Source: an uncultured Ectothiorhodospiraceae bacterium
GTDB taxonomy: Bacteria; Pseudomonadota; Gammaproteobacteria; CAMYNG01
Assembly (NCBI GenBank): GCA_947259765.1
Contig: CAMYNG010000014.1
Span: 4,549 to 68,548 of the forward strand
Reading direction: 5' to 3'
Length of the DNA stretch: 64,000 nucleotides
The notes under the pieces were generated by a model. It did no database searches, was not told the DNA's origin, and saw only the letters and a list, made by a program, of their open reading frames with translations. Made by a program: the position numbers and the translations under genes. This document shows, piece after piece, positions 30,839-63,382 of the stretch (its first letter is position 1; the number at the start of each line of letters is the position of its first letter).

Positions 30839-32188
30839 ATGCAAAAACGCCCAAGCGCACAGGCCGCAATAAGACGGTTATGCAGTGGAGGTTATAACAG
30901 GATGGGTGTCAAAGAAGAAAAATTTGCCCTTAGTTCCGCGCCAGTCACAGCGCCTTCCAATCTTGGCCTGTCTCAGCAGCACCCGGTGCGGTCGGGGGAA
31001 GTTACTGCACTAGACCGCTGGTTGGCCAGGAAGTTACTCACAACGCTCGGAAAACCGCCATTCTCGATACGACTTTGGGACGGCTCGCTTGTCAAGATGC
31101 GCCCCGCTGAACCCAACCAGGTAATTTTTCATGATCGACCGGCCCTGTTGCAAGTGCTTATAAATCCGGAACTGAAGTTCGGCGACCTATACAGTTGTGG
31201 GCGTATTGAGTTAAAGGGAGATCTGGTGGCATTTGTTGTGCAGTGTTATCAGGGCCTGCGGTTTGTTGCTCGCTCCGGCGGTCCGGCCCTTTGGCTCAAG
31301 TGGCTACTGAATCGACCCAGGCGCAATACGCTGATCCAATCGCGCCATAACATCTACCACCACTACGATATTGGCAACGATTTCTATGCGCTCTGGCTGG
31401 ATAAGGTAGCCATGCAGTATACCTGTGGCTACTACCCGGAGCCGGAAATGACCCTGGAGGAAGCCCAGTGTTCCAAATTGCATCACGTATGTCGAAAATT
31501 GCAGCTCAAACCGGGTGATACGGTTGTCGAAGCGGGTTGCGGTTGGGGAGGACTCGCGCTCTTTATGGCGAAACATTACGGGGTGACGGTACGTGCGTAC
31601 AACATTTCTCATCAACAAGTTAGTTTTGCTCGCCAACGGGTAGAACGGGAAGGCATGGCAGGCCAGGTTGAGTATATCGAGGATGATTACCGTAGCATCA
31701 CCGGCCGTTATGATGTGTTTGTGTCGGTAGGCATGTTGGAGCATGTTGGCATCAAGCATTTTGAGGAGCTGGGTGAGGTGATTCAGCGCTGCATGAAGCC
31801 GGACGGGCGGGGTTTGATTCATACCATTGGACGGCGGCGACCGGGGATGATGAATCCGTGGATTGAGCGGCGAGTTTTTCCCGGTGCGCGACCGCCGAGT
31901 CTTGCGGAAATGGGGCGTATATTCGAACCTCAGGAGTTCGCCATACAGGATGTGGAAAACCTACGCCTGCATTACGTAAAAACCCTGCAAGATTGGATGC
32001 GGCGTTTCGAGGAAAATCTGGACACAATTCAAAAATCGTTCGACGACGTGTTTATTCGAGCATGGCGTCTTTATCTCGCCGGTTCCATCGCCGCCTTCAC
32101 TGCCAACGAACTGCAGTTGTTTCAGGTCATGTTTACAGGGCCGGAAAATCAAAATCCGCCCTGGTCACGAGCGCATTTATACCCATGA
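30839..32188 (+). CDS. cfa: Cyclopropane-fatty-acyl-phospholipid synthase family methyltransferase
   Basis: SAM-binding motif VVEAGCGWGGLALFMAKHYG and the C-terminal CFA-synthase region. The 449-aa ORF may start later. Confidence 0.85.
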   Translation: MQKRPSAQAAIRRLCSGGYNRMGVKEEKFALSSAPVTAPSNLGLSQQHPVRSGEVTALDRWLARKLLTTLGKPPFSIRLWDGSLVKMRPAEPNQVIFHDRPALLQVLINPELKFGDLYSCGRIELKGDLVAFVVQCYQGLRFVARSGGPALWLKWLLNRPRRNTLIQSRHNIYHHYDIGNDFYALWLDKVAMQYTCGYYPEPEMTLEEAQCSKLHHVCRKLQLKPGDTVVEAGCGWGGLALFMAKHYGVTVRAYNISHQQVSFARQRVEREGMAGQVEYIEDDYRSITGRYDVFVSVGMLEHVGIKHFEELGEVIQRCMKPDGRGLIHTIGRRRPGMMNPWIERRVFPGARPPSLAEMGRIFEPQEFAIQDVENLRLHYVKTLQDWMRRFEENLDTIQKSFDDVFIRAWRLYLAGSIAAFTANELQLFQVMFTGPENQNPPWSRAHLYP

Positions 32189-32191
32189 GTC

Positions 32192-33346
32192 TTGGTTTTC
32201 AGCCGTCGCCGGCCACGAACAATGATTGATTGTGATGTGCTCATTGTAGGCGGCGGACCCTCCGGGTCCAGTCTCGCCTGGGCTTTGCGCGACAGCGGTC
32301 TAGATGTGCAGTTGCTCGACAAGCACGTGTTTCCAAGAGACAAAGTTTGTGCCGGTTGGATAACCCCCGAAGTGGTCAGCACGTTGCGCTTGAATTTGGC
32401 TGACTACGCGGTGGGACGCACCTTGCAGCCATTTCACGGTTTTCGCGTGAGTCGACTAGGTGGTCGTGAGGTGCACACTAAGGATTCAGCCACACCGGTT
32501 AGCTTTGGCATTCGTCGCTGCGAATTTGACTACTACCTATTGCAACGCAGCGACGTCACGTACCATGAATGCGTTAGCGTAAAACAACTTGTACGCGACG
32601 ACTCCGGATACGTCATCGGGAAGCGTTTTCATACCCGCCTGCTAGTGGGTGCCGGGGGACATTTTTGTCCGGTTGCGCGCAGCCTGGGCGCGAAACCTGG
32701 AGGTGAGGAGACTGCGGTGGTGGCGCAGGAGACCGAGTTTCTTATGAGCCCGGCGCAAGCGGCAGCGTGTAAAGTCGACGCACGGTTTCCCGAGCTGTTT
32801 TTTTGCGAGGACTTGGCAGGTTATGGGTGGGTTGTTCGCAAGGGAGACTATTTGAACGTCGGCCTGGGAAGAGAAGACAAACACCACCTTGCGGAGCATA
32901 TGCAATCGTTCTGTGAATTTCTCAAGGCACGGGGAAAGGTTCCCTACGACATGGGCCGCAAGTTCCCGGGACATGCATATTTGCTGTATCCGCATGCCAC
33001 TCGCCGCGTCGTCGATGATCACGTACTTCTGATAGGTGATGCGGCAGGTTTGGCCTATCCGCAAAGCGGCGAAGGAATTCGTCCCGGTATTGAATCCGCG
33101 TTACTGGCGGCACAAATTATCCGGCGTTGTCAGGGTGACTACAGTTCCGCGGCGTTGAGCCGCTACGAGCATCGTCTTGAGGAACGTCTGGGGCGGCGAA
33201 GTCAAAAATCAGTCTCGGAGCGACTCCCCGGCTGGATTACCGCTTTTGTTGGTAGCAAGCTTTTGTCGACACGCTGGTTCGTACAAAATATAGTCCTGAA
33301 TCGCTGGTTTTTACACGCGCACCAGCCACCGTTGACAGTAGAATAG
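32192..33346 (+). CDS. FAD-dependent oxidoreductase (geranylgeranyl-reductase-like flavoprotein)
   Basis: Rossmann FAD motif CDVLIVGGGPSGSSLAWAL and a GD-motif LIGDAAG. The likely start is at 32222. Confidence 0.8.
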   Translation: MVFSRRRPRTMIDCDVLIVGGGPSGSSLAWALRDSGLDVQLLDKHVFPRDKVCAGWITPEVVSTLRLNLADYAVGRTLQPFHGFRVSRLGGREVHTKDSATPVSFGIRRCEFDYYLLQRSDVTYHECVSVKQLVRDDSGYVIGKRFHTRLLVGAGGHFCPVARSLGAKPGGEETAVVAQETEFLMSPAQAAACKVDARFPELFFCEDLAGYGWVVRKGDYLNVGLGREDKHHLAEHMQSFCEFLKARGKVPYDMGRKFPGHAYLLYPHATRRVVDDHVLLIGDAAGLAYPQSGEGIRPGIESALLAAQIIRRCQGDYSSAALSRYEHRLEERLGRRSQKSVSERLPGWITAFVGSKLLSTRWFVQNIVLNRWFLHAHQPPLTVE

Positions 33347-35154: not shown

Positions 35155-35697
35155 CTACGGCCGGTTAGCGCTTCGGATTGTACCGCGATGTAGGTCGAAC
35201 CGGTTTTGCTTACGGTCCGAAAAAAACAGTTGCAGGGTTTCCGAAATGGTCCGAAAGGCCAGTTGTTGCCAGGGAATGTCTGCTTCGTCGAATAATTCCA
35301 CTTCCAGGCTTTCCGGGCCCGGCGAGAATTCGGTATCAATGAGTTCTGCCAGGTACAACATATATACCTGATTGATATGGGGAAGGCTGAATATCGTGTA
35401 AAGATTGGTGATGCGTATGTTGGCGTTGGCTTCTTCGCGGGATTCTCGCTCGGCGGCTTCTTCTACGGTTTCTCCGTTCTCCATAAACCCTGCGGGTAAG
35501 GTCCAGAGGCCATAGCGAGGTTCAATGGCGCGTTTGCATAACAGAATTTTATCTTTCCAAACAGGTAGACAACCGGTAACAATTTTCGGGTTTTGATAAT
35601 GAATTGTCGCACACTGGATGCAAACGTGGCGGGGTAGGTTGTCACCTGCCGGTATTTTTATCTCGATACTCGCGCCGCAGGCACTGCAATACTTCAT
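35155..35697 (-). CDS. NUDIX hydrolase with N-terminal zinc-ribbon
   Basis: N-terminal CxxC...CxxC (CSACGASI...CIQCATI). NUDIX box GFMENGETVEEAAERESREEANA (GX5EX7REUXEEXGU). Confidence 0.85.
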   Translation of the reverse strand: MKYCSACGASIEIKIPAGDNLPRHVCIQCATIHYQNPKIVTGCLPVWKDKILLCKRAIEPRYGLWTLPAGFMENGETVEEAAERESREEANANIRITNLYTIFSLPHINQVYMLYLAELIDTEFSPGPESLEVELFDEADIPWQQLAFRTISETLQLFFSDRKQNRFDLHRGTIRSANRP

Positions 35698-35750: not shown

Positions 35751-36035
35751 CTATTTTTTTTGACCCTGGGGTACGTATCCCGGTGGTAACTGACCCTGGT
35801 TACCCTCATTGAAAATGAAACCGAGCATGTGTTGCTCAATCAATTCAACGCTGCCTGGGTCGGCGGTGCTGATTTGATTTTCGTTCAATATCGTAGTGAG
35901 ACGCTCCAGCCACTGTTGCCAGCCTTCAACGGAAACATTGTCGAAAATACGCTGGCCGAGCTCACCAGGGTGAGGCGGACTGTCGAGCCCTGGGGCTTCC
36001 CGTTTGAGTACCTGGCAATAAACGACGCGAGACAT
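35751..36035 (-). CDS. yggX: Fe(II)-trafficking / oxidative-damage protection protein YggX
   Basis: 94 aa starting MSRVVYCQVLKREAPGLD...PGELGQRIFDNVS..WQQW. It aligns by eye to E. coli YggX (MSRTIFCTFLQREAEGQD..YPGELGKRIYN). The ORF track's longer 134-aa version has a non-homologous extension. Confidence 0.85.
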   Translation of the reverse strand: MSRVVYCQVLKREAPGLDSPPHPGELGQRIFDNVSVEGWQQWLERLTTILNENQISTADPGSVELIEQHMLGFIFNEGNQGQLPPGYVPQGQKK

Positions 36036-36213
36036 AATAAATTTTGACCTTTGTTTACTTGCGGAAATTAAAGCACGCGGGCGAAGGCAGCCGCAAATGT
36101 ACGCGCCGGTGACACCAGCGTGGGTAATTTCCCAGTGACGTGCTAAACTGTTCAACCGCTAAAGTGGGTATTATCCTTGAACTACAGGCGTGGTCAATCC
36201 CGGGAGAGAAACC

Positions 36214-36600
36214 ATGAGCACAGCAAGTAATTTGGCCTATTCCGCCAACATAAAGAACGAGGAGTTCAAATTAACTCCTGCGGCCGGCGAACAATTAGCA
36301 GCAATTCTTAGCGATGCTGACGAGGGTATTGCGGCAATACGGGTATTTGTCGGCGGTGGTGGGTGCAGTGGAATGACCTATGGCATGACGTTTGCCGAAA
36401 AAGCCACGGAATTTGACAAAACCCTGGAAGGTGAGGGTTACAAGATCTTTGTTGATGCGGTCGCAATGAATTTTCTGCAAGGCTGCGAAATCGATTTTGT
36501 GCAAGAGGGGCTTAACGCCAGTTTTGTCTTTAACAACGTATTCCAGGCCGTGGGTGGCAGCGGTGCCTGTGGAGGTTGTGGAGGAGGCGGTTGCGCCTGA
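36214..36600 (+). CDS. IscA/HesB/ErpA-family Fe-S carrier-like protein with atypical Gly/Cys-rich C-terminal tail (…AVGGSGACGGCGGGGCA)
   Basis: Conserved HesB core (VFVGGGGCSGMTYGMTF; FVDAVAMNFLQGCEIDFVQEGLNASFVFNN). Instead of the canonical C-terminal CGCGxSF, the protein ends in a Gly-rich tail with three Cys. The RBS GGGAGAG sits 6 nt upstream of the ATG at 36214. Confidence 0.75.
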   Translation: MSTASNLAYSANIKNEEFKLTPAAGEQLAAILSDADEGIAAIRVFVGGGGCSGMTYGMTFAEKATEFDKTLEGEGYKIFVDAVAMNFLQGCEIDFVQEGLNASFVFNNVFQAVGGSGACGGCGGGGCA

Positions 36601-36604
36601 GGGT

Positions 36605-37924
36605 GTGAAGCAGAATGCAGTAAACCCGGCCAGCGGAGATCCACCCAGAAAAGCCAGTCGCTGCAAAGACGGTGGCCGCGTCCTGATTATTGCGCCACAC
36701 GGCAGTTATCGAACCGCGCCGTTTATTCGTGCCGCGGAAAATCTTGGATTACCCGTTCTCGTCGCCTCGCAAGGAAGGCATTCTATCGTGAGTGCCTACG
36801 CCAATGGCCTACATATCGATTTTCATGACCCGGACGCGGCATTGGCAACAATTCTTGCGGAAGCCCGTCGTCAGCCGTTTTCCGCCGTTATCGGTACGGA
36901 TGACAGTTCTACGGAGCTGGCAACTCGGGTGTGCGCATTATTGAATTTGCCGCACAATCCGATCGCCGCAGTACAGCTGGCGCGTCGCAAGGACCTGGCT
37001 AGAAAAAGGCTGTCAGAGCAGCACGTGCAGGTACCCGAGCACCGGTTGTTGGATTTGCGCTGTAACTTGCTTGAGCAAGTCGACGGTTTCAGGTTTCCGG
37101 GCGTCATCAAACCGCTGGTTTTGTCCGCCAGTCGTGGCGTCATCCGGGTCAATGATCCTGCAGAGCTACAAACGGCAGCGCAGCGTATTCACGCAATGCT
37201 GTTGCTGGAACCGGGTCTGCAGGATGCAGAGACTCATCAGCTACTCCTTGAGAGCTTCATTGCCGGTCAGGAAGTCGCCGTAGAAGCCATACTTTATGCG
37301 GGCCGGCTCGAACTGCTGGCGGTATTCAATAAGCCCGAAGAGATGAACGGGCCTTTTTTTGAAGAGACTTTTTATGTCACGCCCAGTGGGCTTGACTCGA
37401 CGACGCTGGAAAATCTGCGTGATACTCTCGCCGCGAGTTGTGCCGCCTACGGTTTGCGCGAAGGACCCGTGCACGCCGAGTGCAGGATCAATGCAGCGGG
37501 GGTGTGGGTCATCGAGATCGCGGCACGGACAATCGGCGGTCTATGTGCGCGTTTGTTGCACTTTGGTACCGGACGTACACTGGAAGAACTCGTGCTCGAA
37601 CATGCCATGGGTCGCCGGCAGCCAGTGGAGTCTGGCAAAGATGCCGCCGGGGTACTCATGATCCCCATCCCGCGCGCAGGCGTACTGAAAAGGGTGGAAG
37701 GATTGTTGAAGGCGCGACGCGTTAAGTTTATCGAGGAAATCGACATCCAAATCCGTGAAGGTCATCAGGTGGTACCGTTGCCCGAAGGCTCAAGTTATCT
37801 GGGTTTCGTGTTCTCCAGGGCACCGCACCCTGAGCAAGTATATCTGGCTTTGCAACAGGCTTATGCGTGTCTCAATATTGTTGTCGCGCCGCTTTGGACA
37901 GTGCAGGCGAGACAAGCCGGCTAA
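36605..37924 (+). CDS. ATP-grasp domain ligase (carboxylate-amine ligase-like)
   Basis: Pre-ATP-grasp N-domain (RVLIIAPHGSYRTAPFIRAAENLGLPVLV), then an ATP-grasp core (GFRFPGVIKPLVLSASRGVIRV; ESFIAGQEVAVEAI; EGPVHAECRINAAGVWVIEIAARTIGG). The start is uncertain. The frame is open back to the ATG at 36497, which overlaps the hesB-like gene by 104 nt. GTG at 36605 is the first start after the hesB-like stop. Confidence 0.7.
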   Translation: MKQNAVNPASGDPPRKASRCKDGGRVLIIAPHGSYRTAPFIRAAENLGLPVLVASQGRHSIVSAYANGLHIDFHDPDAALATILAEARRQPFSAVIGTDDSSTELATRVCALLNLPHNPIAAVQLARRKDLARKRLSEQHVQVPEHRLLDLRCNLLEQVDGFRFPGVIKPLVLSASRGVIRVNDPAELQTAAQRIHAMLLLEPGLQDAETHQLLLESFIAGQEVAVEAILYAGRLELLAVFNKPEEMNGPFFEETFYVTPSGLDSTTLENLRDTLAASCAAYGLREGPVHAECRINAAGVWVIEIAARTIGGLCARLLHFGTGRTLEELVLEHAMGRRQPVESGKDAAGVLMIPIPRAGVLKRVEGLLKARRVKFIEEIDIQIREGHQVVPLPEGSSYLGFVFSRAPHPEQVYLALQQAYACLNIVVAPLWTVQARQAG

Positions 37925-37949
37925 TTACGAACCAAATAGAATTTTTCGC

Positions 37950-39017
37950 ATGAAAACTCAAATTCCAGAAACGTACCAGTTGGTTGAAACCAGGTTGCAG
38001 GAGCACATGCCGGATGGCACCACGCGATGCAATTTGTGTCTATGGCGCTGTCGTTTGCGGCATGGCCAACGAGGATTTTGCCAAACGCATGTAAATCGCA
38101 ACGGTACGCTGTATAACCTCTCTTACGGAATTTTGTCTGCCATTGACGTGGGTCCCATCGAGGACAAACCGGTACGTCATTTTCGACCCGGTAGTCGTGT
38201 TATGTCGGTGGGAAGTTACGGTTGTAATTTTCGCTGTGGTGGGTGCCACAATCTGGAAATTTCCTGGGGCGTTGAGGCGCTTGATGAACTGGCGCGCGGC
38301 CAGTCACATGCCGCCTATGTAACGCCGGCACAGCTCGTCGAAGCAGCCCAGCAACACGGGGCCGAGGGCATTGCCTTTACTTACTCGGAACCCGCGGTGT
38401 GGCTGGAATACGTGCTGGACGTTGCGCAGCTGGCGCGCGCTTGTGGCTTGTACACCGTTTATGTTTCCAACAGTTTCGTTACGGATGAAGCGCTGGAGCT
38501 GATTGCCCCCCACATCGATGTGCTGTGCTCTGATGTAAAGAGTATGCAGGATTCGTTTTACGCAGAGATATGCGGCAAGGCGACTGTAGAGCAGGTTTTA
38601 GCCAGCATTGAGAAAGCACACAAACTTGGTATCCACGTTGAAACACGGACTAACATCATCCCTGGTAAAAACGACAACGTGGATACATATCGACGTATTG
38701 CAGAGTGGATACGTGAGCATCTCGGTGCCGATAGTCCTTGGCATATCACTCGGTTTTTTCCGGCCTATAAGCTCGAAAACTTGCCGATGACCCCAGCGGA
38801 ATCCATGTGGCAGGCGCGCGATATTGCCGAACAAGTGGGACTGTCACGTGTTTACGTCTATGATGACAAGGGTTGTGATTGTGCCGATAGCAATCTCCCG
38901 GTGGCCGAGTATCTCGATGCGGACAGTGTTGCGATTCATAAACAGAAACAATGTGCGGCAAGTTGTTGTGGCGAATCAGGTGTGCTGATCAAGAAGTATG
39001 AGCGCGACGCCGGATAG
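37950..39017 (+). CDS. PflA-like radical SAM enzyme of the AmmeMemoRadiSam-system type (N-terminal Cys-ribbon + CX3CX2C), with extra C-terminal Cys cluster
   Basis: TRCNLCLWRCRL..GFCQTHVNRNGTLYNLSYG...DVGPIEDKPVRHFRPGSRVMSVGSYGCNFRCGGCHNLEIS matches the signature of TIGR04337-type radical SAM activases. The C-terminus carries CDCADS...CAASCCGE. The ATG at 37950 is 25 nt after the ATP-grasp stop. Confidence 0.75.
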   Translation: MKTQIPETYQLVETRLQEHMPDGTTRCNLCLWRCRLRHGQRGFCQTHVNRNGTLYNLSYGILSAIDVGPIEDKPVRHFRPGSRVMSVGSYGCNFRCGGCHNLEISWGVEALDELARGQSHAAYVTPAQLVEAAQQHGAEGIAFTYSEPAVWLEYVLDVAQLARACGLYTVYVSNSFVTDEALELIAPHIDVLCSDVKSMQDSFYAEICGKATVEQVLASIEKAHKLGIHVETRTNIIPGKNDNVDTYRRIAEWIREHLGADSPWHITRFFPAYKLENLPMTPAESMWQARDIAEQVGLSRVYVYDDKGCDCADSNLPVAEYLDADSVAIHKQKQCAASCCGESGVLIKKYERDAG

Positions 39018-39156: not shown

Positions 39157-39933
39157 ATGGACAACGAAATTCATCCAACGGCGCTGGTGTCGCCTAATGC
39201 AGTTTTAGGAACAGGGAATACCGTTGGGCCGTTTGTTGTCATCGAGGCCGGTGTTGCCTTGGGCAATGACAATTCCGTGGCAGGCCACAGTGTTCTTAAA
39301 TCCGGCACTACCCTGGGTGATCGTAACGTCCTGGCAGAACATGCGGTGCTGGGTGGAGCACCGCAGGATCTGGGTTTTGATATCACGATGAGTACGCGAT
39401 TGCTTATCGGTGACGACAATACGTTTCGCGAATATGTCACGGTTCACCGTGCGTCGAAGTGCGATGCCGCAACACAGATTGGCAAGCACAATTTTTTTAT
39501 GAACGGAGCGCACATTGCGCACGATTGCGAGTTCGGTGATAGGATAATCGTTGCACCCTTTGCCGCTTTTGGAGGTCACGTGCGCGTCGACAATTTCGCA
39601 TTTATTTCTGGAGGCGTCATGGTGCATCAGTTTTCCAAGATCGGCCGAAACGCCATGATCGGCGGCAACAGCAAGATCACCCAGGATGTTTTGCCGTACA
39701 TGATCACGGATGGTGTTCCTGGCAAAGTGAGGGGTTTAAACAGCGTCGGCCTGCGCCGCGCTGGTTTTTCGCCGGCGGAAATGCGTTCCTTAAAGGCGGC
39801 CTTTCAGCTCATGTTCGGTTCCGTTAGGAGTAAGGAAGATTTGATTACCGAGTTAAACGGCATGGAATCGGATCATTGTCGCCACCTTGCGGACTTTGTT
39901 TCCACCTCCCGGCGCGGCTTCCACCGTGTCTGA
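39157..39933 (+). CDS. lpxA: Acyl-ACP--UDP-N-acetylglucosamine O-acyltransferase LpxA-family protein (hexapeptide-repeat left-handed beta-helix + C-terminal helical domain)
   Basis: 258 aa. Hexapeptide repeats and conserved catalytic-region motifs (FMNGAHIAHDCEFGD; HQFSKIGRNAMIGG; GLNSVGLRRAGFSPAEMRSLKAAFQLMF) align with E. coli LpxA. The location next to fabA-fabB is unusual. Confidence 0.75.
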   Translation: MDNEIHPTALVSPNAVLGTGNTVGPFVVIEAGVALGNDNSVAGHSVLKSGTTLGDRNVLAEHAVLGGAPQDLGFDITMSTRLLIGDDNTFREYVTVHRASKCDAATQIGKHNFFMNGAHIAHDCEFGDRIIVAPFAAFGGHVRVDNFAFISGGVMVHQFSKIGRNAMIGGNSKITQDVLPYMITDGVPGKVRGLNSVGLRRAGFSPAEMRSLKAAFQLMFGSVRSKEDLITELNGMESDHCRHLADFVSTSRRGFHRV

Positions 39934-40120
39934 CTCGTTTGGGTGGAAATAATTTCCCTGCTGAACGCCTTTATTTCAACGGGTTGCCTACGTAGAATAC
40001 CGCTCTTGATACTTGGTCGGTGCGGAAATATCAGCGGCCGGCAATTCCCGGTCCACCACTTGGGTTTTGTATGTACCCTTGCCCCCGGTGATGGGTAACG
40101 AATTAATCGAATATTAGAAA

Positions 40121-40657
40121 ATGGAAAACGTGGTCGCAAAATTCGAGAAAAAGAACGCCTATTCCTACGAGGAATTAATTCAGTGTGGCCATGGCAAACT
40201 GTTCGGCGCCGGAAATGCTCAGCTGCCGCTGCCGCCCATGTTGATGTTTGATCGCATACCGGTCATTACCGAGACAGCCGGGGCTTACGGCAAGGGGGAA
40301 ATTGTCGCGGAGCTTGATGTAAATCCGGACCTGTGGTTTTTCGCCTGTCATTTTGAAGGTGATCCGGTCATGCCCGGTTGCCTTGGGCTTGATGCGTTGT
40401 GGCAGCTGCTCGGTTTTTACCTGGGCTGGCTCGGGGGACCGGGCCACGGCCGCGCACTTGGTGCAGGCGAGGTCAAGTTTGGTGGCCAGGTCATACCCGA
40501 TACAAAACGGGTGACCTATCGCATCGATATCAAACGCATCATAATGCGGAAACTTTTTATGGGTATTGCCGACGCGCGTATGGAAGCGGATGGCCGTGAG
40601 ATCTATACCGCCAAGGATCTGCGCGTAGGCCTGTTCACTTCAACCGAAGGTATGTAA
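40121..40657 (+). CDS. fabA: 3-hydroxydecanoyl-ACP dehydratase/isomerase FabA
   Basis: [33 protein letters not shown] hot-dog active-site region, nearly identical to FabA consensus. Confidence 0.95.
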
Positions 40658-40662
40658 AAACA

Positions 40663-41883
40663 ATGGCTTTGCGACGTGTTGCAGTTACCGGCCTGGGGAT
40701 CATTTCCAGCATTGGTAGCAACAAAACAGAGGTTACCGATGCGCTACGTGCCGGGCGCTCAGGGATTGAATTTTGCCAGGATTACGCTGACCGTGGATTT
40801 CGCTCACAGGTGCACGGTTCTCTAAAGGTGGAGCCGAATGATCTGATAGATCGTAAGCTGCGTCGTTTTATGGGCGATTCGGCTGCGTTCAACTATCTGG
40901 CCATGCAGGAGGCCGTTGCGGATTCCGGACTGAAGCCTGACGAAATTTCCCACGAACGCACCGGTCTTGTGGTTGGATCCGGGGGAACCTCGACCGAGAA
41001 TATCGTGCTTGCGGCGGACATTGCGCGTGAAAAAGGTGTGAAGCGGGTGGGGCCTTACATGGTGACCCGTACCATGGCCAGTACCAACTCGGCCTGTCTG
41101 GCAACCGCGTTCAAGATTAAGGGTGTCAACTATTCCATGAGTTCGGCGTGCTCCACCAGCGCGCATTGCGTCGGTCATGGTGCCGAGTTGATCCAGATGG
41201 GCAAGCAGGATGTTGTCTTTGCTGGCGGGGGTGAGGAATTACACTGGACCCTTTCGGTGTTGTTTGATGCCATGGGTGCTCTGTCCTCAAAGTATAACGA
41301 CACTCCGGATCGTGCCTCGCGTGCCTACGACGTGGATCGCGATGGGTTCGTCATTTCCGGCGGCGGTGGGGTGATAGTGCTCGAGGAACTGGAGCGGGCG
41401 CGGCAGCGGGGTGCAAATATCTATGCCGAGTTGGTGGGATACGGTGCCAACTCTGACGGCTACGACATGGTTCAGCCATCGGGCGAGGGCGCAGCACGCT
41501 GCATGCGCTTGGCTTTACAGGATGTTGATTTGCCGATTGACTACATCAATGCCCACGGCACCAGTACGCCGGTCGGTGATATGCGCGAGCTGGAAGCTAT
41601 AAAGACGGTGTTTGCCGATCGGATCCCGCCGATCAGTTCAACCAAATCGCTAACGGGACACGCGCTTGGCGCGGCCGGCGTTAACGAGGCGATCTATTCC
41701 TTGTTAATGATGAACGATTCCTTTATTTCCGCATCCGCCAACATTGATAATCTGGATCCCGAGGCGGATGGTTTCCCCATCGTGCAAACCTGCCAGGAAA
41801 CGCAGTTAAACTGTATCATGTCGAACAGTTTCGGTTTCGGTGGCACCAATGCGAGTTTGATATTCAAACGGTCGGCTGACTAA
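40663..41883 (+). CDS. fabB: Beta-ketoacyl-ACP synthase I FabB
   Basis: 406 aa. KAS I motifs are present (active Cys in [16 protein letters not shown], His in [18 protein letters not shown]). Confidence 0.95.
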
Positions 41884-51059: not shown

Positions 51060-52415
51060 ATGCCCCGTAAACTGTTTGTCAAAACTTTCGGCTGCCAGAT
51101 GAACGAGTATGACTCGGACAAGATGGCCGATGTGCTTGCCGAATCGCATCAGTTTGAGCGTGTCGGCGATCCGGCCGTGGCGGATGTGTTGTTGCTCAAT
51201 ACTTGCTCGGTGCGTGAAAAGGCACAGGAAAAGGTATTCTCGGAGCTGGGCCGCTGGCGCGAGTTAAAACAGGCGCAGCCGCATCTGGTGCTGGGTGTTG
51301 GAGGCTGTGTCGCCAGTCAGGAAGGTGAGGCCATCCTGGCCCGTGCGCCGTTTGTTGACATAGTGTTTGGTCCGCAAACCCTGCATCGTTTACCGCAAAT
51401 GCTTGACGACGTTCTCGCCCGGCGGCGCGCGGTGGTCGATATCAGTTTCCCCGAGATTGAAAAATTCGATCACCTGCCGGCGCCGCGCACGGATGGCGTC
51501 AGCGCTTTTGTTTCCATTATGGAAGGTTGCAGCAAGTACTGCAGTTTCTGCGTGGTACCCTACACGCGGGGCGAGGAATTCAGTCGGCCGTTTGACGATG
51601 TTCTGGCCGAAGTCGCGCAACTGGCACGGCAGGGTGTACGCGAAGTGACGCTACTCGGCCAGAACGTGAATGCCTACCGGGGGCTGATGGACGATGGTGA
51701 GAAGGCTGATTTGGCGCTGCTGATCCATTACCTCGCCGCTATCGAGGGCATTGATCGCATCCGTTACACCACTTCACACCCGCTGGAAATGACAGACAGC
51801 CTCATCGCGGCATACACCGAAGTGCCGGAATTGGTGGGGCACCTACACTTGCCGGTTCAGTCCGGTTCGGATCGGGTGTTGGCGCAGATGAAGCGCGGCC
51901 ACACGGCCCTTGAATACCGGTCGGTGATAAGTCGTTTGCGTGAGGCCAGGCCGAATATCAGTATTTCATCGGATTTTATTATCGGATTCCCCGGTGAGAC
52001 AGAGGCGGATTTCGAGGCGACGCTTGATTTGATTTCCGAGGTGGGCTTCGATCATTCCTTTAGCTTTGTTTACAGCCAACGTCCGGGAACCCCGGCGGCA
52101 GGCTTACCTGACGACGTGCCGCTTACAACCAAAAAGGCCCGCCTGGCGGTGCTGCAGGCCCGGATCAGCCAGCGGGCCGGCGAAATTTCCCGCGGTATGG
52201 TCGGTAGTTTACAGCGGATCCTGGTAGAGGGGCCGGCCAAAAAAGACCCCAACGAGCTTTGTGGCCGCACAGAGAATAATCGTGTGGTAAACTTCAAGGG
52301 ACCAGCGTCACTAATAGGTCAGTTTATAAACGTTCGCATTACAGCGGCTTTGCCTAATTCTTTGCGTGGTCAGCAAGTTCCTGCGGAAGCCTCCGCTGCG
52401 CGTGCCTGCCCCTGA
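51060..52415 (+). CDS. miaB: tRNA-2-methylthio-N6-dimethylallyladenosine synthase MiaB (radical SAM methylthiotransferase)
   Basis: N-terminal MTTase Cys ([15 protein letters not shown]...LNTCSVRE), radical [11 protein letters not shown], and a TRAM domain at the C-terminus. Confidence 0.95.
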
Positions 52416-57137: not shown

Positions 57138-60306
<3,169 letters not shown>

Positions 60307-60310
<4 letters not shown>

Positions 60311-61347
60311 AATTAAGTTCAGACCAACTGCTGGCACGATTACGCCAGCCCGGCAACGAAGCCCTGGCGCCGATCTATCTCATCAGTGGAGACGAACCCT
60401 TTCAGCTCGGTGAGCTTGCAGATGCGCTCCGTTCCTGCGCTCGGCGGCAGGGTTATACCGATCGGCAGGTATTTTTCGCCGAGCGTGGTTTCGATTGGCA
60501 GTCACTCAGTGCCGAGCAAGATGCCTTGTCGCTGTTTGCCGAACGGCGCGTCCTCGATTTACGATTGCCGGGCAGCAAACCCGGCGACGCGGGCTCGCGC
60601 GCATTGCGGGCCTACGCCGCGCGTCCTCCCGCGGACACGGTGTTACTGGTGACCACGGGCAAACTCGATCGCAGCCAGGCGCGGAGCAAATGGGTCACAG
60701 AGTTGGAACGGGCGGGTGTCGCGGCCCAGGTATGGCCGGTGGAGGCGGGTCGTTTACCTCGTTGGTTGCAGTCGCGCATGCAGGCGCGTGGTCTCGATCC
60801 CGATACAGGCGCCGTTCAGCTTCTGGCCGAGCGGGTCGAGGGCAATCTGCTCGCGGCCGATCAGGCCATGGAAAAGCTGTTGCTGTTATACGGCCCGGGG
60901 CCGGTGGATACCGGGCAGGTCATCGCCGCGGCCGCCGACAGTGCCCGGTTTGACGTTTTTTCACTGGGTGATACCGCGTTGTCGGGAGATACGCCGCGAG
61001 CCTTGCGGATGTTGTTTGGTCTGCTGGCAGAAGGCGTTGAGCCCGCTGTCGCCCTGTGGGCGCTGGCCCGGGTGACCCGCGAGGCGTCCCGCTTGGCCGC
61101 TGCCGGACAGACCGGGGCGGCGCTTGACGGCGCCATGACGCGCCTGGGTATCTGGGATAAGCGTAAACCGGCGGTACGCGCCGCGTTGCAGCGGCACTCG
61201 CAGGAACACTGGCACCGGCTGGTGCGCTGTTTAGCGCGGGCGGATCGGGTAATTAAGGGGCTTGAAGCAGGCACAGTGCGGGATGAATTGATACAATTAG
61301 TAACAGGTATCGCCGCACAGGGCGCCCAGGAGTGGGTACGTCACTGA
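60307..61347 (+). CDS. holA: DNA polymerase III subunit delta
   Basis: Conserved N-terminus (YLISGDEPFQLGE) and the synteny lptE-holA. Confidence 0.85.
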
Positions 61348-61381
61348 CGGCCGGGCACAGCGTTGAGGTAACCAGCATTTC

Positions 61382-62650
61382 ATGGACGCCAAAGTAGACA
61401 TCAAGCAGTACATGACCGATGTGGGCCAACGCGCCCGTGCCGCCGCGCGGGTGTTGGCGCGAGCGAACACGGCGGCCAAGGACGCCGCGCTAATGGCGAT
61501 GGCCAGTCAAATTGAACAATCTAAAGACACCTTGCTGGCTGCCAATGCCGAAGATATGCAGGCTGGCCGGGAGCTGGGACTGGATGCGGCCTTGCTGGAT
61601 CGGCTGGAACTGACCCCGGACCGCGTTGCTGCCATGGCCGAAGGTCTACGCCAGATTGCTGCACTCGCGGATCCAGTGGGCGCGATTACGGATATGAATT
61701 TTCGGCCGTCGGGGATCCAGGTCGGTCGCATGCGCGTACCCTTGGGAGTGGTCGGTATCATTTACGAGTCGCGGCCAAACGTCACCGCGGATGCCGCTGG
61801 TTTGTGTCTGAAGTCCGGAAATGCGGCTATTTTACGCGGTGGCTCCGAGGCGTTGCATTCTAATCAGGCGGTGGCGGCCTGTATTCGCGCCGGACTGGGT
61901 GAAGCCGGGTTGCCGGACGACGCCGTGCAGGTAATAGAGGTTACGGATCGAGCCGCGGTTGGTGAGCTGATCACCATGCAACAGTACGTCGATGTTATCG
62001 TACCGCGTGGTGGCAAGGGTTTGATTGAACGCGTCAGTGCCGAGGCCAGGGTACCCGTTATCAAGCACCTGCACGGCGTGTGTCACGTGTATATCGATGC
62101 CGACGCGGATCCAGAGAAGGCAGTCGATGTGGCGTTTAATGCTAAAACCCAGCGCTATGGCACGTGTAATACCATGGAAACCTTGTTGGTGGATGGTCCC
62201 ATTGCAACAGAGGTGCTGCCCAAACTTGAGCAACGTTATCGGCATGCGAACGTTGAATTGCGCGGTTGCGCACAGACGAAAAAGATTCTTGCAGACGTCA
62301 AACCGGCGACGGAGGAGGACTGGGATACAGAGTATCTTGCTCCCGTGCTTTCAATCCGCATTGTCGACGGCCTTGACGCCGCCTTGGATCATTTACATGC
62401 ACATAGCTCGGGTCACACCGACGCCATCGTGACCGAAAATTTTTCACGAGCGCGACGTTTTCTGGCCGAAGTGGATTCCAGCTCGGTCATGGTGAATGCG
62501 TCCACCCGCTTCGCTGACGGCTTCGAATACGGCCTGGGTGCCGAAATCGGCATCAGTACCGACAAAATTCACGCCCGTGGTCCGGTAGGACTGGAAGGCC
62601 TGACATCACAAAAGTACGTGGTCATTGGTGACGGTCATATTCGCAAGTAA
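61382..62650 (+). CDS. proA: Glutamate-5-semialdehyde dehydrogenase (gamma-glutamyl phosphate reductase)
   Basis: [35 protein letters not shown]; catalytic Cys region [10 protein letters not shown]. Confidence 0.95.
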
Positions 62651-62746
62651 ACCTCGCCGTCGCGGTTTAACCCGCGGCTTATCCCGTACGGTCGCTGCCC
62701 CCGTTCCCGCTTTGCCAGTTGGCAGAGCAAACCGGCCAGATACGAA

Positions 62747-63382
62747 ATGATCGGTTTGTTCGGCGGTACTTTCGATCCTATTCACTTTGGTCATCTGCGT
62801 CCGGCGCTGGAGGTATTCAACGCCTTGCCGTTCAGTGAACTACGTCTTCTCCCGTGTGGTGTGCCGGGGCATCGGACGCGACCGGTTGCCAACGCGCTGC
62901 AGCGACTGACCATGGTGCGCGCGGCCATCAGTAGTATTCCGGGTTTCAAACTGGATACCCGGGAGGTTGATAAACCTACTCCGTGTTACACCGTGGAAAC
63001 CCTGCTGGAGTTACGCACACAAATGCCAACGCACCCGCTGGCCGTGGTGATTGGCATGGACGCATTTCTTGGGCTTGAGTCGTGGCATCGCTGGCATGAA
63101 GTCATTACGCTGGCGCATCTTGTTGTGACTCATCGGCCGGGTTGGGACGTGGAGCATATTCAGGACAATCCAGTGCTAAACCGGTTCGTTGGCGAGCATC
63201 AGTGTTGGCAAGCCGAGGAGCTGACAGCACGACCGGCTGGCGGGATCTGGTTTCAACCGGTGACTTTGCTGGATATTTCAGCCACGCGAATTCGTCAGAT
63301 GTTGAAGGCCGGAGATGACGTGCGGTTTCTACTGCCTGAATCTGTAAATCAGTTAATTAAACAACAGAGAATATATGCATGA
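62747..63382 (+). CDS. nadD: Nicotinate-nucleotide adenylyltransferase
   Basis: GLFGGTFDPIHFGHL (HxGH nucleotidyltransferase motif). Confidence 0.9.
   Translation: MIGLFGGTFDPIHFGHLRPALEVFNALPFSELRLLPCGVPGHRTRPVANALQRLTMVRAAISSIPGFKLDTREVDKPTPCYTVETLLELRTQMPTHPLAVVIGMDAFLGLESWHRWHEVITLAHLVVTHRPGWDVEHIQDNPVLNRFVGEHQCWQAEELTARPAGGIWFQPVTLLDISATRIRQMLKAGDDVRFLLPESVNQLIKQQRIYA

What the first reader, a model, noticed from the sequence alone, without database searches (positions are those of the whole stretch)
36214..39017. Three-gene module: HesB/IscA variant with Gly/Cys-rich tail + ATP-grasp ligase + PflA-like (AmmeMemoRadiSam-type) radical SAM, without AMMECR1 or Memo
Seen in sequence: three co-directional, tightly spaced genes. 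Gene 1 has a complete A-type Fe-S carrier core. Its canonical C-terminal CGCGxSF is replaced by a low-complexity tail AVGGSGACGGCGGGGCA. Gene 2 is an ATP-grasp ligase whose reading frame is open for 100 nt back into gene 1. Gene 3 carries the N-terminal Cys-ribbon and the CX3CX2C loop of the radical SAM activase family that normally partners with AMMECR1 and Memo. Neither partner is present here, and the protein carries an extra C-terminal CDC...CAASCC cluster. Established knowledge: ATP-grasp ligases and radical SAM enzymes are the two most common RiPP or protein-tail maturases. A-type carriers deliver Fe-S clusters. The substrates of AmmeMemoRadiSam radical SAM enzymes are unknown. Inference: this may be an undescribed peptide or protein-tail modification module. 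The Gly/Cys tail of gene 1 could be the substrate, for example by ATP-grasp ligation or radical cross-linking. Alternatively it is a dedicated Fe-S-loaded activase system acting on the downstream lipid genes. A yggX Fe(II)-trafficking gene diverges from the same promoter region, which fits an iron-cofactor theme.
Basis: partly seen in the sequence, partly recalled or inferred. Interest (0 to 1): 0.75.

Follow-up and report, generated by a model that had tools for sequence, protein, structure and literature searches.

The report
Conserved Fe-S carrier, ligase, radical-SAM operon
The three genes are a real, tightly linked operon conserved in many sulfur-oxidising gammaproteobacteria, part of an apparently undescribed gene network that ties the iron protein YggX and a variant iron-sulfur carrier to an amino-acid-ligase-type enzyme and a radical SAM enzyme of unknown substrate.

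Summary
yggX (35751-36035, -) diverges from a variant A-type Fe-S carrier, here HesB* (36214-36600). An L-amino-acid-ligase-type ATP-grasp (36605-37924) and a PflA-like radical SAM, here rSAM-A (37950-39017), follow. In 80 species-representative genomes, HesB* lies directly upstream of the ATP-grasp in 70/75 loci and yggX is present in 70/80. rSAM-A lies directly downstream in 39/70. In other loci an unrelated CUAEP/CCAEP-tail rSAM (an ArsL paralogue) fills the same slot. Both rSAM types also occur convergent to mutY-yggX without the other genes. Starting from CCAEP rSAMs, 34/57 metagenome loci carry a distant LAL ATP-grasp immediately downstream, mostly without HesB*. The conserved part of the HesB* tail is a CxxC that replaces the canonical CGC, and the extreme C-terminus varies. 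Many yggX-hesB* intergenic regions carry an IscR type-1-like operator. The best reading is that the rSAM and the ligase are the catalytic pair, and YggX and HesB* supply their iron and Fe-S clusters. The idea that the tail is the substrate is disfavoured, and the lipid-gene link is not supported. The substrate is unknown. I found no description of this module.

The parts
35751..36035 (-). yggX, a Fe(II)-trafficking / oxidative-damage protection protein of 94 aa that starts MSRVVYC. It is transcribed divergently from the operon.
   Evidence: PF04362 97.2 bits and NF003817 97.3 bits, cutoff 74. It is present in 70/80 ATP-grasp-centred loci, nearly always divergent from hesB*. It is also next to both rSAM types in loci that lack the other genes.
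36036..36213 (.). Divergent promoter region between yggX and hesB*.
   Evidence: One sigma-70-like site for yggX at 36197-36170, which is no more than chance for the region. In relatives the equivalent region carries an IscR type-1-like operator: 23/71 regions score at least 18/25, against about 1-2 expected. In the window itself the best match is only 15/25.
36214..36600 (+). HesB*, a variant A-type Fe-S carrier of 128 aa. C50 lies in the GGGGCSGM motif, and the tail is GGSGA-C117-GG-C120-GGGG-C125-A.
   Evidence: PF01521 and TIGR00049 above cutoff. The ErpA, IscA and SufA equivalog models score below cutoff. The nearest solved structures are HI1723 and IscA. The motif FVFNNVFQxVGGSGxCxxCG is conserved in about 70 loci, and the remainder of the tail varies.
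36605..37924 (+). L-amino-acid-ligase-type ATP-grasp enzyme. The GTG start at 36605 gives 439 aa. An alternative GTG at 36554 would overlap hesB*.
   Evidence: ATPgrasp_N + ATP-grasp_4 + LAL_C2. The family profile hits BL00235 (PDB 3vot) at E = 2e-59. The AlphaFold model has pLDDT 82 and matches 3vot with TM 0.78-0.83. The hesB* stop lies 4 nt before the GTG, and a GGAGGAGG Shine-Dalgarno sequence sits inside the Gly codons of the hesB* tail.
37950..39017 (+). rSAM-A, a PflA-like radical SAM enzyme of 355 aa. It has an N-terminal C4 ribbon, a CX3CX2C motif, and a clade-specific C-terminal C309-D-C311 ... C335-x3-C339-C340 tail.
   Evidence: TIGR04337 236.6 bits, cutoff 220, matching model positions 3-291 of 349 only. 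There are 14 invariant Cys in 22 orthologues that are 71-77% identical. The C-terminal motif is conserved in all full-length orthologues listed. PflA is the nearest solved structure. Residues 1-19 are conserved, so the shorter public gene call of 336 aa is probably truncated.
35155..35697 (-). Zn-ribbon Nudix hydrolase downstream of yggX. It is a conserved neighbour and is not claimed as part of the system.
   Evidence: An orthologue lies beside yggX in 35 loci. Pfam Zn_ribbon_Nudix + NUDIX in L001, L087 and L090.
39157..41883 (+). lpxA-like acyltransferase (39157-39933), fabA (40121-40657) and fabB (40663-41883). These are syntenic neighbours and are not claimed as part of the system.
   Evidence: NF003657 280.6 bits for lpxA. 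They are present downstream in about 31-33 loci, at a variable distance from the rSAM and with unrelated genes inserted. They are absent from many modules.

Best explanation
The finding is one arrangement of a wider, apparently undescribed gene network. The network has four roles.
1. A radical SAM enzyme carries a flexible C-terminal tail with adjacent cysteines.
   - Two non-orthologous rSAM families fill this role interchangeably.
   - One is the window's PflA-like rSAM-A, with CDC...Cx3CC.
   - The other is the CUAEP/CCAEP-tail rSAM, an ArsL paralogue.
2. An L-amino-acid-ligase-type ATP-grasp enzyme.
3. YggX.
4. In the sulfur-oxidising gammaproteobacterial clade, a dedicated A-type Fe-S carrier (HesB*). 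Its CGC ligand pair has become CxxC on a Gly-rich tail.

Proposed working, with every functional step inferred:
- The rSAM is the catalytic core. It holds a thiophilic substrate or an auxiliary cluster on its Cys-Cys tail, as ArsL holds As(III) on its CCxxC tail.
- The ligase forms an acyl-phosphate on an amino-acid-like carboxylate. It then makes an amide bond in the same pathway, either on the rSAM product or to make its substrate.
- YggX supplies or protects iron, and HesB* supplies Fe-S clusters. Together they load and re-load the oxygen-sensitive, multi-cluster rSAM.
- In many relatives the operon appears to be under IscR control, so it would be expressed when Fe-S demand is high.

Shown here: the gene content, its conservation, the interchangeability of the two rSAM families, the family and fold assignments, and the operator enrichment. 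Inferred: every functional step. The substrate and product remain unknown.
For: Operon conservation
- HesB* lies directly upstream of the ATP-grasp in 70/75 loci.
- rSAM-A lies directly downstream in 39/70 loci.
- yggX is present in 70/80 loci.
- Gaps are mostly under 40 nt or overlapping, with a 4-nt overlap in L087.

Interchangeable rSAM families
- The CCAEP rSAM (NF040546, 621 bits) occupies the slot after the ATP-grasp in L026, L028, L029 and L036.
- It is co-directional just downstream of yggX in L053 and L066.
- It is convergent to mutY-yggX in L093, L096-L099 and L106.
- rSAM-A takes that same convergent arrangement in L085, L086, L089 and L091.

Ligase-rSAM link independent of HesB*
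- 34/57 CCAEP-centred metagenome loci have an LAL ATP-grasp immediately downstream. It is 37-42% identical to the window's and has ATP-grasp_4 + LAL_C2.
- HesB* was detected in only 3 of the 80 loci.

Fe-S theme
- HesB* keeps C50 and the tail Cys pair, and is closest to ErpA/IscA structures.
- IscR type-1 consensus matches of at least 18/25 occur in 23/71 yggX-hesB* intergenic regions, against about 1-2 expected. L056 matches 25/25. The consensus is from PMC6084964.

rSAM features
- rSAM-A has 14 invariant Cys.
- In ArsL the C-terminal CCxxC binds the substrate As(III) (bioRxiv 10.64898/2026.04.29.721666).

Ligase type
- The closest solved relative by sequence and fold is the dipeptide ligase BL00235.
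Against: - There is no biochemical evidence for any step.
- In the window itself the IscR-like site is not recognisable (15/25). None was found upstream of stand-alone rSAM-A genes.
- About 25 loci have yggX-hesB*-ATP-grasp with neither rSAM within 8 kb. Many rSAM-A and CCAEP genes lack a nearby ligase. I could not test whether the partners are elsewhere in those genomes.
- Most of the 80 genome loci are from related gammaproteobacterial lineages, so inherited synteny inflates the counts.
- The HesB* tail type co-varies with the rSAM type. This also fits a more direct tail-rSAM relation than plain cluster delivery.
- The resemblance between the rSAM-A Cx3CC tail and the ArsL CCxxC tail is a motif analogy and not homology.
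Confidence: 0.45

Rival explanations
1. Protein-tail maturation. The Gly/Cys tail of HesB* is the substrate. The ATP-grasp ligates an amino acid to the tail or cyclises it, and the rSAM cross-links or modifies its cysteines. The product would be a modified carrier or a released peptide.
For: - hesB* and the ATP-grasp are almost always adjacent, with very short gaps.
- The tail is flexible, Gly-rich and Cys-bearing.
- Tail type co-varies with the neighbouring rSAM. With rSAM-A, 27/41 tails have a third Cys. With the CCAEP rSAM, 10/10 lack it and end in F, Y or H.
- From established knowledge, some LAL-like ATP-grasp enzymes accept peptides (PGM1 in pheganomycin biosynthesis), and RimK and LysX act on protein C-termini.
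Against: - The invariant part of the tail, CxxC, sits where A-type carriers have their CGC cluster ligands.
- The extreme C-terminus differs in length and last residue among orthologues. That is unlike the substrates of RimK or LysX.
- The RimK model scores 20.5 bits against a cutoff of 143.
- ATP-grasp + rSAM pairs exist without a detectable HesB* in L063, L081 and L083, and in most of 34 CCAEP-centred loci.
- rSAM-A occurs with yggX alone.
- The tail co-variation is confounded by phylogeny.
Confidence: 0.15
2. Synteny without shared function. HesB* is this clade's ErpA-like housekeeping carrier beside yggX. The ATP-grasp and the rSAM are unrelated enzymes that sit in the same conserved chromosomal neighbourhood.
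For: - The region is housekeeping. nudix-yggX lie upstream and lpxA-fabA-fabB downstream, and both travel with the module in about 30-35 loci.
- Most loci come from related gammaproteobacterial orders.
- E. coli erpA is reported to be IscR-regulated (from my own knowledge). An IscR site therefore says little about the two enzymes.
Against: - Several distinct arrangements link the same components: rSAM-A or CCAEP after the ligase, rSAM-A or CCAEP convergent to yggX, CCAEP downstream of yggX, and CCAEP followed by a ligase only 37-42% identical.
- Flanking genes differ among these arrangements.
- Spacings consistent with translational coupling persist at 55-60% protein identity.
Confidence: 0.12
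3. An ordinary AmmeMemoRadiSam system. The rSAM works with AMMECR1 and Memo homologues encoded elsewhere in the genome, and its place behind the ATP-grasp is incidental.
For: - TIGR04337 scores above its cutoff (236.6 against 220).
- Public annotation uses that family name for the orthologues.
- Only 64 kb of this genome can be seen.
Against: - The clade scores only 221.6-236.6 bits, and only on model positions up to about 291 of 349. Canonical members score 253-337 bits over nearly the full model.
- The canonical C-terminal CxxC...CxxC ribbon is replaced by CDC...Cx3CC.
- In the 50%-identity representative library, only one full-length representative (P0361) aligns across the whole query including the tail. 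One 47%-identical relative, P0365, carries a related CDC...CCCC ending.
- No AMMECR1 or Memo domain is recorded in any orthologous locus that carried Pfam annotation.
- None was found in the window from 30.8 to 47.3 kb.
Confidence: 0.1
4. Organo-metalloid or antimetabolite biosynthesis on the arsinothricin model. The Cys-Cys tail binds As(III), Sb(III), Se or a similar species. The rSAM transfers a carbon fragment of SAM to it, and the LAL ligase packs the resulting amino acid into a dipeptide.
For: - The CCAEP rSAM is a clear paralogue of ArsL (264 bits on NF040542).
- The ArsL CCxxC tail binds As(III).
- From established knowledge, LAL enzymes make the dipeptides bacilysin, rhizocticin, tabtoxin and dapdiamide. 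BacD, RizA and DdaF appear among the hits.
- Haft noted CU/CC motifs in organometallic systems.
Against: - The genes sit in housekeeping neighbourhoods across hundreds of species and not in ars or resistance islands.
- No ArsM, efflux or resistance gene is consistently adjacent.
- The operon shows IscR-type regulation and a YggX / A-type-carrier context.
- rSAM-A is not related to ArsL.
Confidence: 0.06

Closest known systems
AmmeMemoRadiSam system radical SAM enzymes (NCBIfam TIGR04337; function unknown)
   Same: The PflA-like core, the N-terminal Cys ribbon and the CX3CX2C motif. Relatives are 35-47% identical over residues about 13-305. The HMM score is just above cutoff.
   Different: The canonical C-terminal CxxC...CxxC ribbon is replaced by a conserved CDC...Cx3CC tail. 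No AMMECR1 or Memo neighbours or fusions were seen. The consistent neighbours are yggX and, in about half of the loci, HesB* + ATP-grasp.
CUAEP/CCAEP-tail radical SAM (seleno)protein (NF040546) and its paralogue ArsL (NF040542)
   Same: It occupies the same operon positions as the window's rSAM, after the ATP-grasp and next to yggX. It has adjacent cysteines on a C-terminal tail. In ArsL such a tail binds the substrate.
   Different: It belongs to a different rSAM subfamily with a B12-binding-like N-terminal domain, and shows only about 24% local similarity to the window's protein. None is present in the 64-kb window. Its function is also unknown: Haft's 2022 preprint calls it uncharacterised.
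A-type Fe-S carriers ErpA / IscA / SufA
   Same: The fold family (PF01521, TIGR00049), the first ligand Cys in GGGCSG, and a C-terminal Cys pair. The nearest solved structures are HI1723 and IscA. An IscR type-1-like operator occurs in relatives. E. coli erpA is reported to have one, which I recall from my own knowledge.
   Different: CxxC replaces CGC. The loop before it is about 5 residues longer, and a variable Gly/Ala run follows, with or without a third Cys. It scores below the cutoff of every equivalog model. It is translationally linked to an ATP-grasp gene.
L-amino acid ligases (BL00235, BacD/YwfE, RizA)
   Same: The three-domain architecture including LAL_C2, the fold (TM 0.78-0.83 to 3vot), and the E-x-(A/G)-A-R-x-G-G catalytic-loop motif.
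   Different: It is only 23% identical to BL00235. It is a housekeeping-like gene conserved across a clade, where the known LALs sit in sporadic natural-product clusters. It pairs with an Fe-S carrier and an rSAM. Its family-specific invariant residues include APHGSYRT and Cys279/293/314.
Pyrrolysine biosynthesis PylB (rSAM) + PylC (ATP-grasp) (from established knowledge)
   Same: It is a precedent for an rSAM that makes an unusual amino acid, which an ATP-grasp then ligates through an amide bond.
   Different: The enzyme subfamilies are different. There is no PylD equivalent, and the Pyl system has no Fe-S carrier or YggX partners. This is a resemblance of logic only and was not tested here.

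Membership tests
AmmeMemoRadiSam rSAM (TIGR04337) | Whole-protein HMM score at or above the curated cutoff | tested here: met
   The score is 236.6 bits against a cutoff of 220, but only model positions 3-291 of 349 are matched. The clade representative P0361 scores 221.6, and canonical members score 253-337.
AmmeMemoRadiSam rSAM (TIGR04337) | Neighbouring or fused AMMECR1 and Memo homologues, the feature that names the system | tested here: not met
   None was found among ORFs scanned from 30.8 to 47.3 kb of the window. None is recorded among called genes of L001, L085-L087 and L089-L091. The rest of the genome could not be tested.
AmmeMemoRadiSam rSAM (TIGR04337) | C-terminal CxxC...CxxC ribbon seen in canonical members | tested here: not met
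   P0366, P0369, P0370, P0383 and P0395 have this ribbon. The window clade has CDC...Cx3CC instead.
A-type Fe-S carrier (PF01521 / TIGR00049) | Family HMM above cutoff | tested here: met
   PF01521 52.5 bits (cutoff 26.3) and TIGR00049 81.7 bits (cutoff 58.8).
A-type Fe-S carrier (PF01521 / TIGR00049) | Three ligand cysteines arranged C...C-G-C | tested here: inconclusive
   The first Cys, in GGGCSG, is present. The C-terminal pair is present but spaced CxxC after a longer loop, and this is conserved in about 70 orthologues. Whether it still binds a cluster cannot be tested here.
ErpA / IscA / SufA equivalogs | Equivalog HMM above cutoff | tested here: not met
   ErpA 71.9 against 117, IscA 70.3 against 150.6, SufA 72.9 against 136.2.
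L-amino acid ligase ATP-grasp | ATPgrasp_N + ATP-grasp_4 + LAL_C2 architecture and an LAL fold | tested here: met
   Pfam scores are 33.2, 105.1 and 52.3 bits, all above cutoff. 3vot matches the family profile at E = 2e-59. Foldseek gives E = 2e-33 and TM 0.78-0.83.
L-amino acid ligase ATP-grasp | ATP-dependent dipeptide formation from free L-amino acids | not testable with these tools
   This needs an enzyme assay.
Protein-tail ligases (RimK / LysX type) or graspetide maturases | Family HMM match, and a conserved acceptor residue at the substrate C-terminus or in its core | tested here: not met
   The RimK family scores 20.5 bits against a cutoff of 143.4. The HesB* C-terminal residues are not conserved.
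CUAEP/CCAEP-tail rSAM (NF040546) | Family HMM match of the window's rSAM | tested here: not met
   It is not among the NCBIfam hits of the window protein. tblastn of a CCAEP rSAM against the window gives only a 24% match at E = 0.47 on gene 3.
YggX (PF04362 / NF003817) | Family HMM above cutoff and the N-terminal Cys7 | tested here: met
   97.2 and 97.3 bits. MSRVVYC is present.
IscR regulon (type-1 site) | Match to ATASYYGACTRWWWYAGTCRRSTAT in the promoter region | tested here: inconclusive
   In relatives, 23/71 regions score at least 18/25 against about 1-2 expected, and L056 scores 25/25. The window's own intergenic region reaches only 15/25, which is within the range of shuffled sequences.

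The most novel reading that the evidence does not exclude
Two unrelated radical SAM families, each with an adjacent-cysteine C-terminal tail, are isofunctional cores of a widespread and so far unrecognised pathway. They work with an LAL-type ligase to make an unknown amino-acid-derived metabolite, cofactor or modification. The long-debated protein YggX, and in sulfur oxidisers a CxxC-tailed A-type carrier, are their dedicated iron and Fe-S partners. If so, this would give the first functional handle on three things: YggX, the CUAEP/CCAEP rSAM family, and a branch of the AmmeMemoRadiSam family.
Probability: 0.3. Interest if true: 0.8.

Novelty: new variant of a known kind. Interest (0 to 1): 0.62.

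Why it matters
- **YggX.** It has been studied mainly as a protectant of Fe-S enzymes, and no defined client is known to me. Here it is the common neighbour of two rSAM families across many genomes, which offers a concrete client to test.
- **Two uncharacterised rSAM families.** The AmmeMemoRadiSam-like clade and the CUAEP/CCAEP-tail family have no known substrates. They occupy the same operon slots and both pair with an LAL-type ligase. That narrows the search to an amino-acid-like substrate or product, and it suggests a simple first experiment: SAM cleavage products and ligase substrate screens.
- **The CxxC-tailed A-type carrier.** It is a natural variant of the cluster-ligand motif and could inform how these carriers bind and hand over clusters.
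- **Ecology.** The module is common in environmentally important sulfur-oxidising gammaproteobacteria, including Thiohalomonadales, Acidiferrobacterales, Sulfuricaulis and Woeseiaceae.

Tried and rejected
- **Fe-S or metal site in the ATP-grasp.** The three invariant Cys (C279/C293/C314) suggested one. I dropped the idea because the CCAEP-linked ligases, only 37-42% identical, keep just two of them.
- **YggX-rSAM fusion in L004.** The gene was called as a 574-aa product. I treat it as unconfirmed because hesB* is frameshifted in the same contig. In L053 and L066 the two genes are separate and about 13 nt apart.
- **ATP-grasp-rSAM fusion in L088.** The 636-aa product is probably also an assembly frameshift.
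- **DUF971 (PF06155) as a system component.** It lies directly upstream of CCAEP rSAMs in 12 loci. It may only reflect synteny with ubiE, which sits between them in some loci, so I do not claim it.
- **Link to the lipid genes.** I rejected this on the variable spacing and the frequent absence of those genes.
- **Searches that found nothing.**
  - Rfam on 33-42 kb gave no match at E up to 0.1.
  - The promoter and terminator scan was no better than shuffles, and there is no terminator between the rSAM and lpxA.
  - Look-ups of the window's own proteins returned no accession, name or contig.
  - The literature searches were AmmeMemoRadiSam, ATP-grasp + YggX, AMMECR1 + radical SAM, LAL + Fe-S + rSAM, and YggX + radical SAM. 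They gave nothing on this module.
- **IscR sites elsewhere.** None was found upstream of stand-alone rSAM-A genes or in the window's own promoter region.

Full report
**1. What is in the window**

Between 35.7 and 39.0 kb there are four genes.
- **yggX**, 35751-36035, minus strand, 94 aa. It scores 97 bits on PF04362 and 97 bits on NF003817.
- **HesB\***, 36214-36600, 128 aa, an A-type Fe-S carrier homologue transcribed divergently from yggX. It scores above cutoff on PF01521 and on TIGR00049 (81.7 against 58.8). It scores below cutoff on the ErpA, IscA and SufA equivalog models.
- **An ATP-grasp enzyme**, 36605-37924, with ATPgrasp_N, ATP-grasp_4 and LAL_C2 domains.
- **rSAM-A**, 37950-39017, 355 aa, a radical SAM enzyme. 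It scores 236.6 bits on TIGR04337, cutoff 220.

The hesB* stop lies 4 nt before a GTG. That GTG is preceded by GGAGGAGG, which is made of the Gly codons of the hesB* tail.

Orthologues are conserved only from R25 of the GTG-36605 protein, so the overlap is probably non-coding.

rSAM-A has 14 invariant cysteines among 22 orthologues:
- an N-terminal C27/C30/C34/C44 ribbon;
- the C92/C96/C99 SAM-cluster motif;
- C193 and C208;
- a C-terminal set, C309-D-C311 ... C335-x3-C339-C340.

No AMMECR1 or Memo domain was found among ORFs scanned from 30.8 to 47.3 kb.

**2. Is the module conserved?**

The ATP-grasp has thousands of relatives. The closest are about 55-66% identical and come from uncultured Gammaproteobacteria.

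A scan of one genome per species returned more than 550 relatives. I kept the best 80. They come mainly from Thiohalomonadales, Thioalkalispiraceae, Acidiferrobacterales, Sulfuricaulis, Woeseiaceae and Thiohalophilus.

By tblastn on these 80 loci:
- hesB* lies directly upstream of the ATP-grasp in 70 of the 75 loci with enough upstream sequence;
- yggX is present in 70 of 80, nearly always divergent from hesB*;
- rSAM-A lies directly downstream in 39 of the 70 loci with enough downstream sequence.

Gaps are short. The distance from the ATP-grasp stop to the rSAM start is mostly between -7 and +40 nt, and the two genes overlap by 4 nt in L087. The module is real.

**3. The HesB\* tail**

Across about 70 orthologues the conserved element is FVFNNVFQxVGGSGxCxxCG. 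A Gly/Ala run of variable length follows. It ends in CA, CG, F, Y, GG, AA and other residues.

Aligned to HI1723 and IscA, the CxxC sits where A-type carriers have their CGC ligand pair.

The tail is therefore a variant ligand motif on a longer, more flexible arm. It is not a hypervariable core peptide, and it has no conserved C-terminal acceptor.

One point remains open. Tail type co-varies with the neighbouring rSAM.
- With rSAM-A, 27/41 tails carry a third Cys and only 7/41 end in an aromatic residue.
- With the other rSAM type (section 4), 10/10 lack the third Cys and end in F, Y or H.

Phylogeny confounds this pattern.

**4. A second, unrelated rSAM fills the same slot**

In loci without rSAM-A, a 462-aa rSAM ending ...EPWYCCAEP... 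often appears. [quoted passage not shown] It occurs in three arrangements.
- Directly after the ATP-grasp, in the order yggX <-> hesB* - ATP-grasp - CCAEP, in L026, L028, L029 and L036.
- Co-directional just downstream of yggX and divergent from hesB* - ATP-grasp, in L053, L066, L061, L004 and L058.
- After the ATP-grasp with no hesB* or yggX, in L063, L081 and L083.

Haft's 2022 preprint calls this family uncharacterised and notes its rare CU/CC motif. In ArsL, the C-terminal CCxxC binds the substrate As(III).

**5. Views centred on the rSAMs**

*rSAM-A.* Its orthologues are 72-79% identical, more conserved than the ligase or HesB*. I looked up five on long contigs.
- Four lie convergent to mutY-yggX with no hesB* or ATP-grasp nearby: L085, L086, L089 and L091.
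- One has the full module: L090.

*CCAEP rSAM.* I scanned metagenome contigs starting from this family and kept 80 loci.
- 34 of the 57 loci with enough downstream sequence carry an ATP-grasp immediately downstream. It is 37-42% identical to the window's and has ATP-grasp_4 + LAL_C2.
- yggX is nearby in 22 loci.
- HesB* is detectable in only 3.
- Several loci show the CCAEP rSAM convergent to yggX-mutY, the same arrangement seen for rSAM-A.

The same components thus recur in several different arrangements, with different flanking genes, and with two non-orthologous rSAM families swapping places. This is hard to explain by inherited synteny alone. It argues that the ligase and the rSAM work together and that YggX is the common accessory.

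**6. Family and fold assignments**

*ATP-grasp.* The family profile hits the dipeptide ligase BL00235 (PDB 3vot) at E = 2e-59. The AlphaFold model has pLDDT 82 and matches 3vot with TM 0.78-0.83. RizA and BacD follow. RimK-type models score far below cutoff.

*rSAM-A.* The model has pLDDT 71, with low confidence in the Cys-rich segments. PflA is the nearest solved structure.

In the library of 50%-identity representatives:
- Only one full-length representative, P0361 at 65% identity, aligns over the whole query including the C-terminal tail.
- The next relatives are 35-47% identical, and most align only to about residue 305.
- The five canonical relatives I inspected carry a CxxC...CxxC ribbon at the C-terminus instead. 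One 47%-identical relative, P0365, carries a related CDC...CCCC ending.
- The rSAM-A clade scores 221.6-236.6 bits on TIGR04337. Canonical members score 253-337 bits over nearly the whole model.

rSAM-A is therefore a discrete edge clade of the family. It has its own C-terminal domain and none of the partner genes that name the system.

**7. Regulation**

Repeated words in the yggX-hesB* intergenic regions suggested an IscR site. I scored all 71 regions against the published E. coli type-1 consensus ATASYYGACTRWWWYAGTCRRSTAT (PMC6084964).
- 23 regions reach at least 18/25.
- About 1.9 would be expected from shuffles and about 1.0 from random segments of the same loci.
- L056 scores 25/25, L040 24/25 and L026 23/25.
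- All 25 best-scoring sites are on the hesB* strand.

This places the operon in an Fe-S homeostasis regulon in many lineages. The window's own region reaches only 15/25, so this feature is not shown for the window itself. No such site was found upstream of stand-alone rSAM-A genes.

**8. Interpretation**

The best-supported reading has these parts.
- An rSAM with an adjacent-Cys tail and an LAL-type ligase form a catalytic pair.
- YggX is the iron partner.
- In this clade, the CxxC-tailed carrier HesB* is the Fe-S partner of the multi-cluster rSAM.

I give this about 0.45. The gene-level facts are shown here. All functional steps are inferred, and the substrate is unknown.

In its favour are the tight hesB*-ligase coupling and the tail co-variation. 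Against it are four points:
- the ligand-like position of the conserved tail element;
- the unconserved C-terminus;
- the LAL type of the ligase;
- the many ligase-rSAM pairs without HesB*.

A role on the downstream lpxA-fabA-fabB genes is not supported. The spacing varies and those genes are often absent.

Smaller weights go to plain synteny, to an ordinary AmmeMemoRadiSam system, and to arsinothricin-like chemistry.

**9. Novelty**

All four proteins belong to known superfamilies. No curated family is specific for HesB*, for the ligase or for the module. No paper describing the module turned up in the searches I ran. I rate it a new variant of a known kind: an rSAM plus ATP-grasp cassette with dedicated Fe-S accessories.

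It matters for three reasons.
- It offers candidate clients for YggX.
- It offers a shared context for two uncharacterised rSAM families.
- It is a natural variant of the A-type carrier ligand motif.

Noticed in passing
window 36570-36607: The Gly codons of the HesB* tail (GGAGGTTGTGGAGGAGGCGGT) form a strong Shine-Dalgarno-like GGAGGAGG about 17 nt upstream of the GTG start of the ATP-grasp. The tail-coding sequence may therefore also serve translational coupling.
   Followed up: partly
window 37950-38009 and 36554-36605: The public gene calls appear to differ from the conservation-supported starts. The rSAM is called as 336 aa starting at M20, yet residues 1-19 (Y9, L11, T14, L16-E18) are invariant in orthologues. 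The ATP-grasp is called as 456 aa from GTG 36554, overlapping hesB*, yet its first roughly 40 residues are not conserved.
   Followed up: partly
window 39157-41883: An lpxA-like acyltransferase that scores above the LpxA equivalog cutoff sits directly upstream of fabA-fabB. The more usual place for lpxA is an lpxD-fabZ-lpxA-lpxB cluster. The trio is conserved in about 31-33 related loci, where lpxA is only 49-61% identical and fabA/fabB are 70-82% identical. It may be a second, specialised copy.
   Followed up: no
window 30839-33346: A cyclopropane-fatty-acid-synthase-family methyltransferase with an N-terminal DUF7884 domain (449 aa) is followed 3 nt later by an FAD-dependent oxidoreductase (384 aa). 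They look like a small lipid-modification pair upstream of the module.
   Followed up: no
L004 5600-6010 and 3694-5418; L088 6396-8306: Apparent gene fusions (YggX-CCAEP rSAM, 574 aa; ATP-grasp-rSAM, 636 aa) occur in long metagenome contigs. At least one neighbouring gene, hesB* in L004, is clearly frameshifted. The fusions may be indel artefacts, or they may be real and would then be strong evidence of functional linkage.
   Followed up: partly
L108, L111, L126, L130, L134, L141, L154, L164 (upstream of the CCAEP rSAM): A DUF971 / GBBH-like_N protein (PF06155, 104 bits) lies directly upstream of CCAEP rSAM + ATP-grasp pairs in 12 loci. In L109 and L119 a ubiE-like methyltransferase lies between them. 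It may be a further accessory, or it may only reflect ubiquinone-operon synteny.
   Followed up: partly
L004 7614-8977; L003 12197-12631; L138 4440-5167; L143 (between the CCAEP rSAM and the ATP-grasp): DUF169 proteins (PF02596) recur near CCAEP-type modules, and a class I methyltransferase does so in L003 and L004.
   Followed up: no
L087 3822-4706; L090 3493-3822 and 7718-9259: Genes with a possible iron, redox or selenium theme flank some full modules. They are ApbE (flavin transferase), a YccV-like protein between yggX and nudix, and SelO.
   Followed up: no
window 36475-36480 (HesB* residues 88-89, QGC): An extra Cys in the motif (Q/K/R)GC(D/E)ID(F/Y) is present in most HesB* orthologues but is replaced by S, V, T or A in some. 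Canonical A-type carriers have no Cys at this position.
   Followed up: no
window 1-1023, 51060-52415, 57156-63741: The rest of the window is ordinary gammaproteobacterial housekeeping sequence. It includes an ispG-like gene at the left end, a miaB-like rSAM, and leuS-lptE-holA-proA-nadD-rsfS-like genes. I identified these only from the first residues of the ORFs.
   Followed up: no
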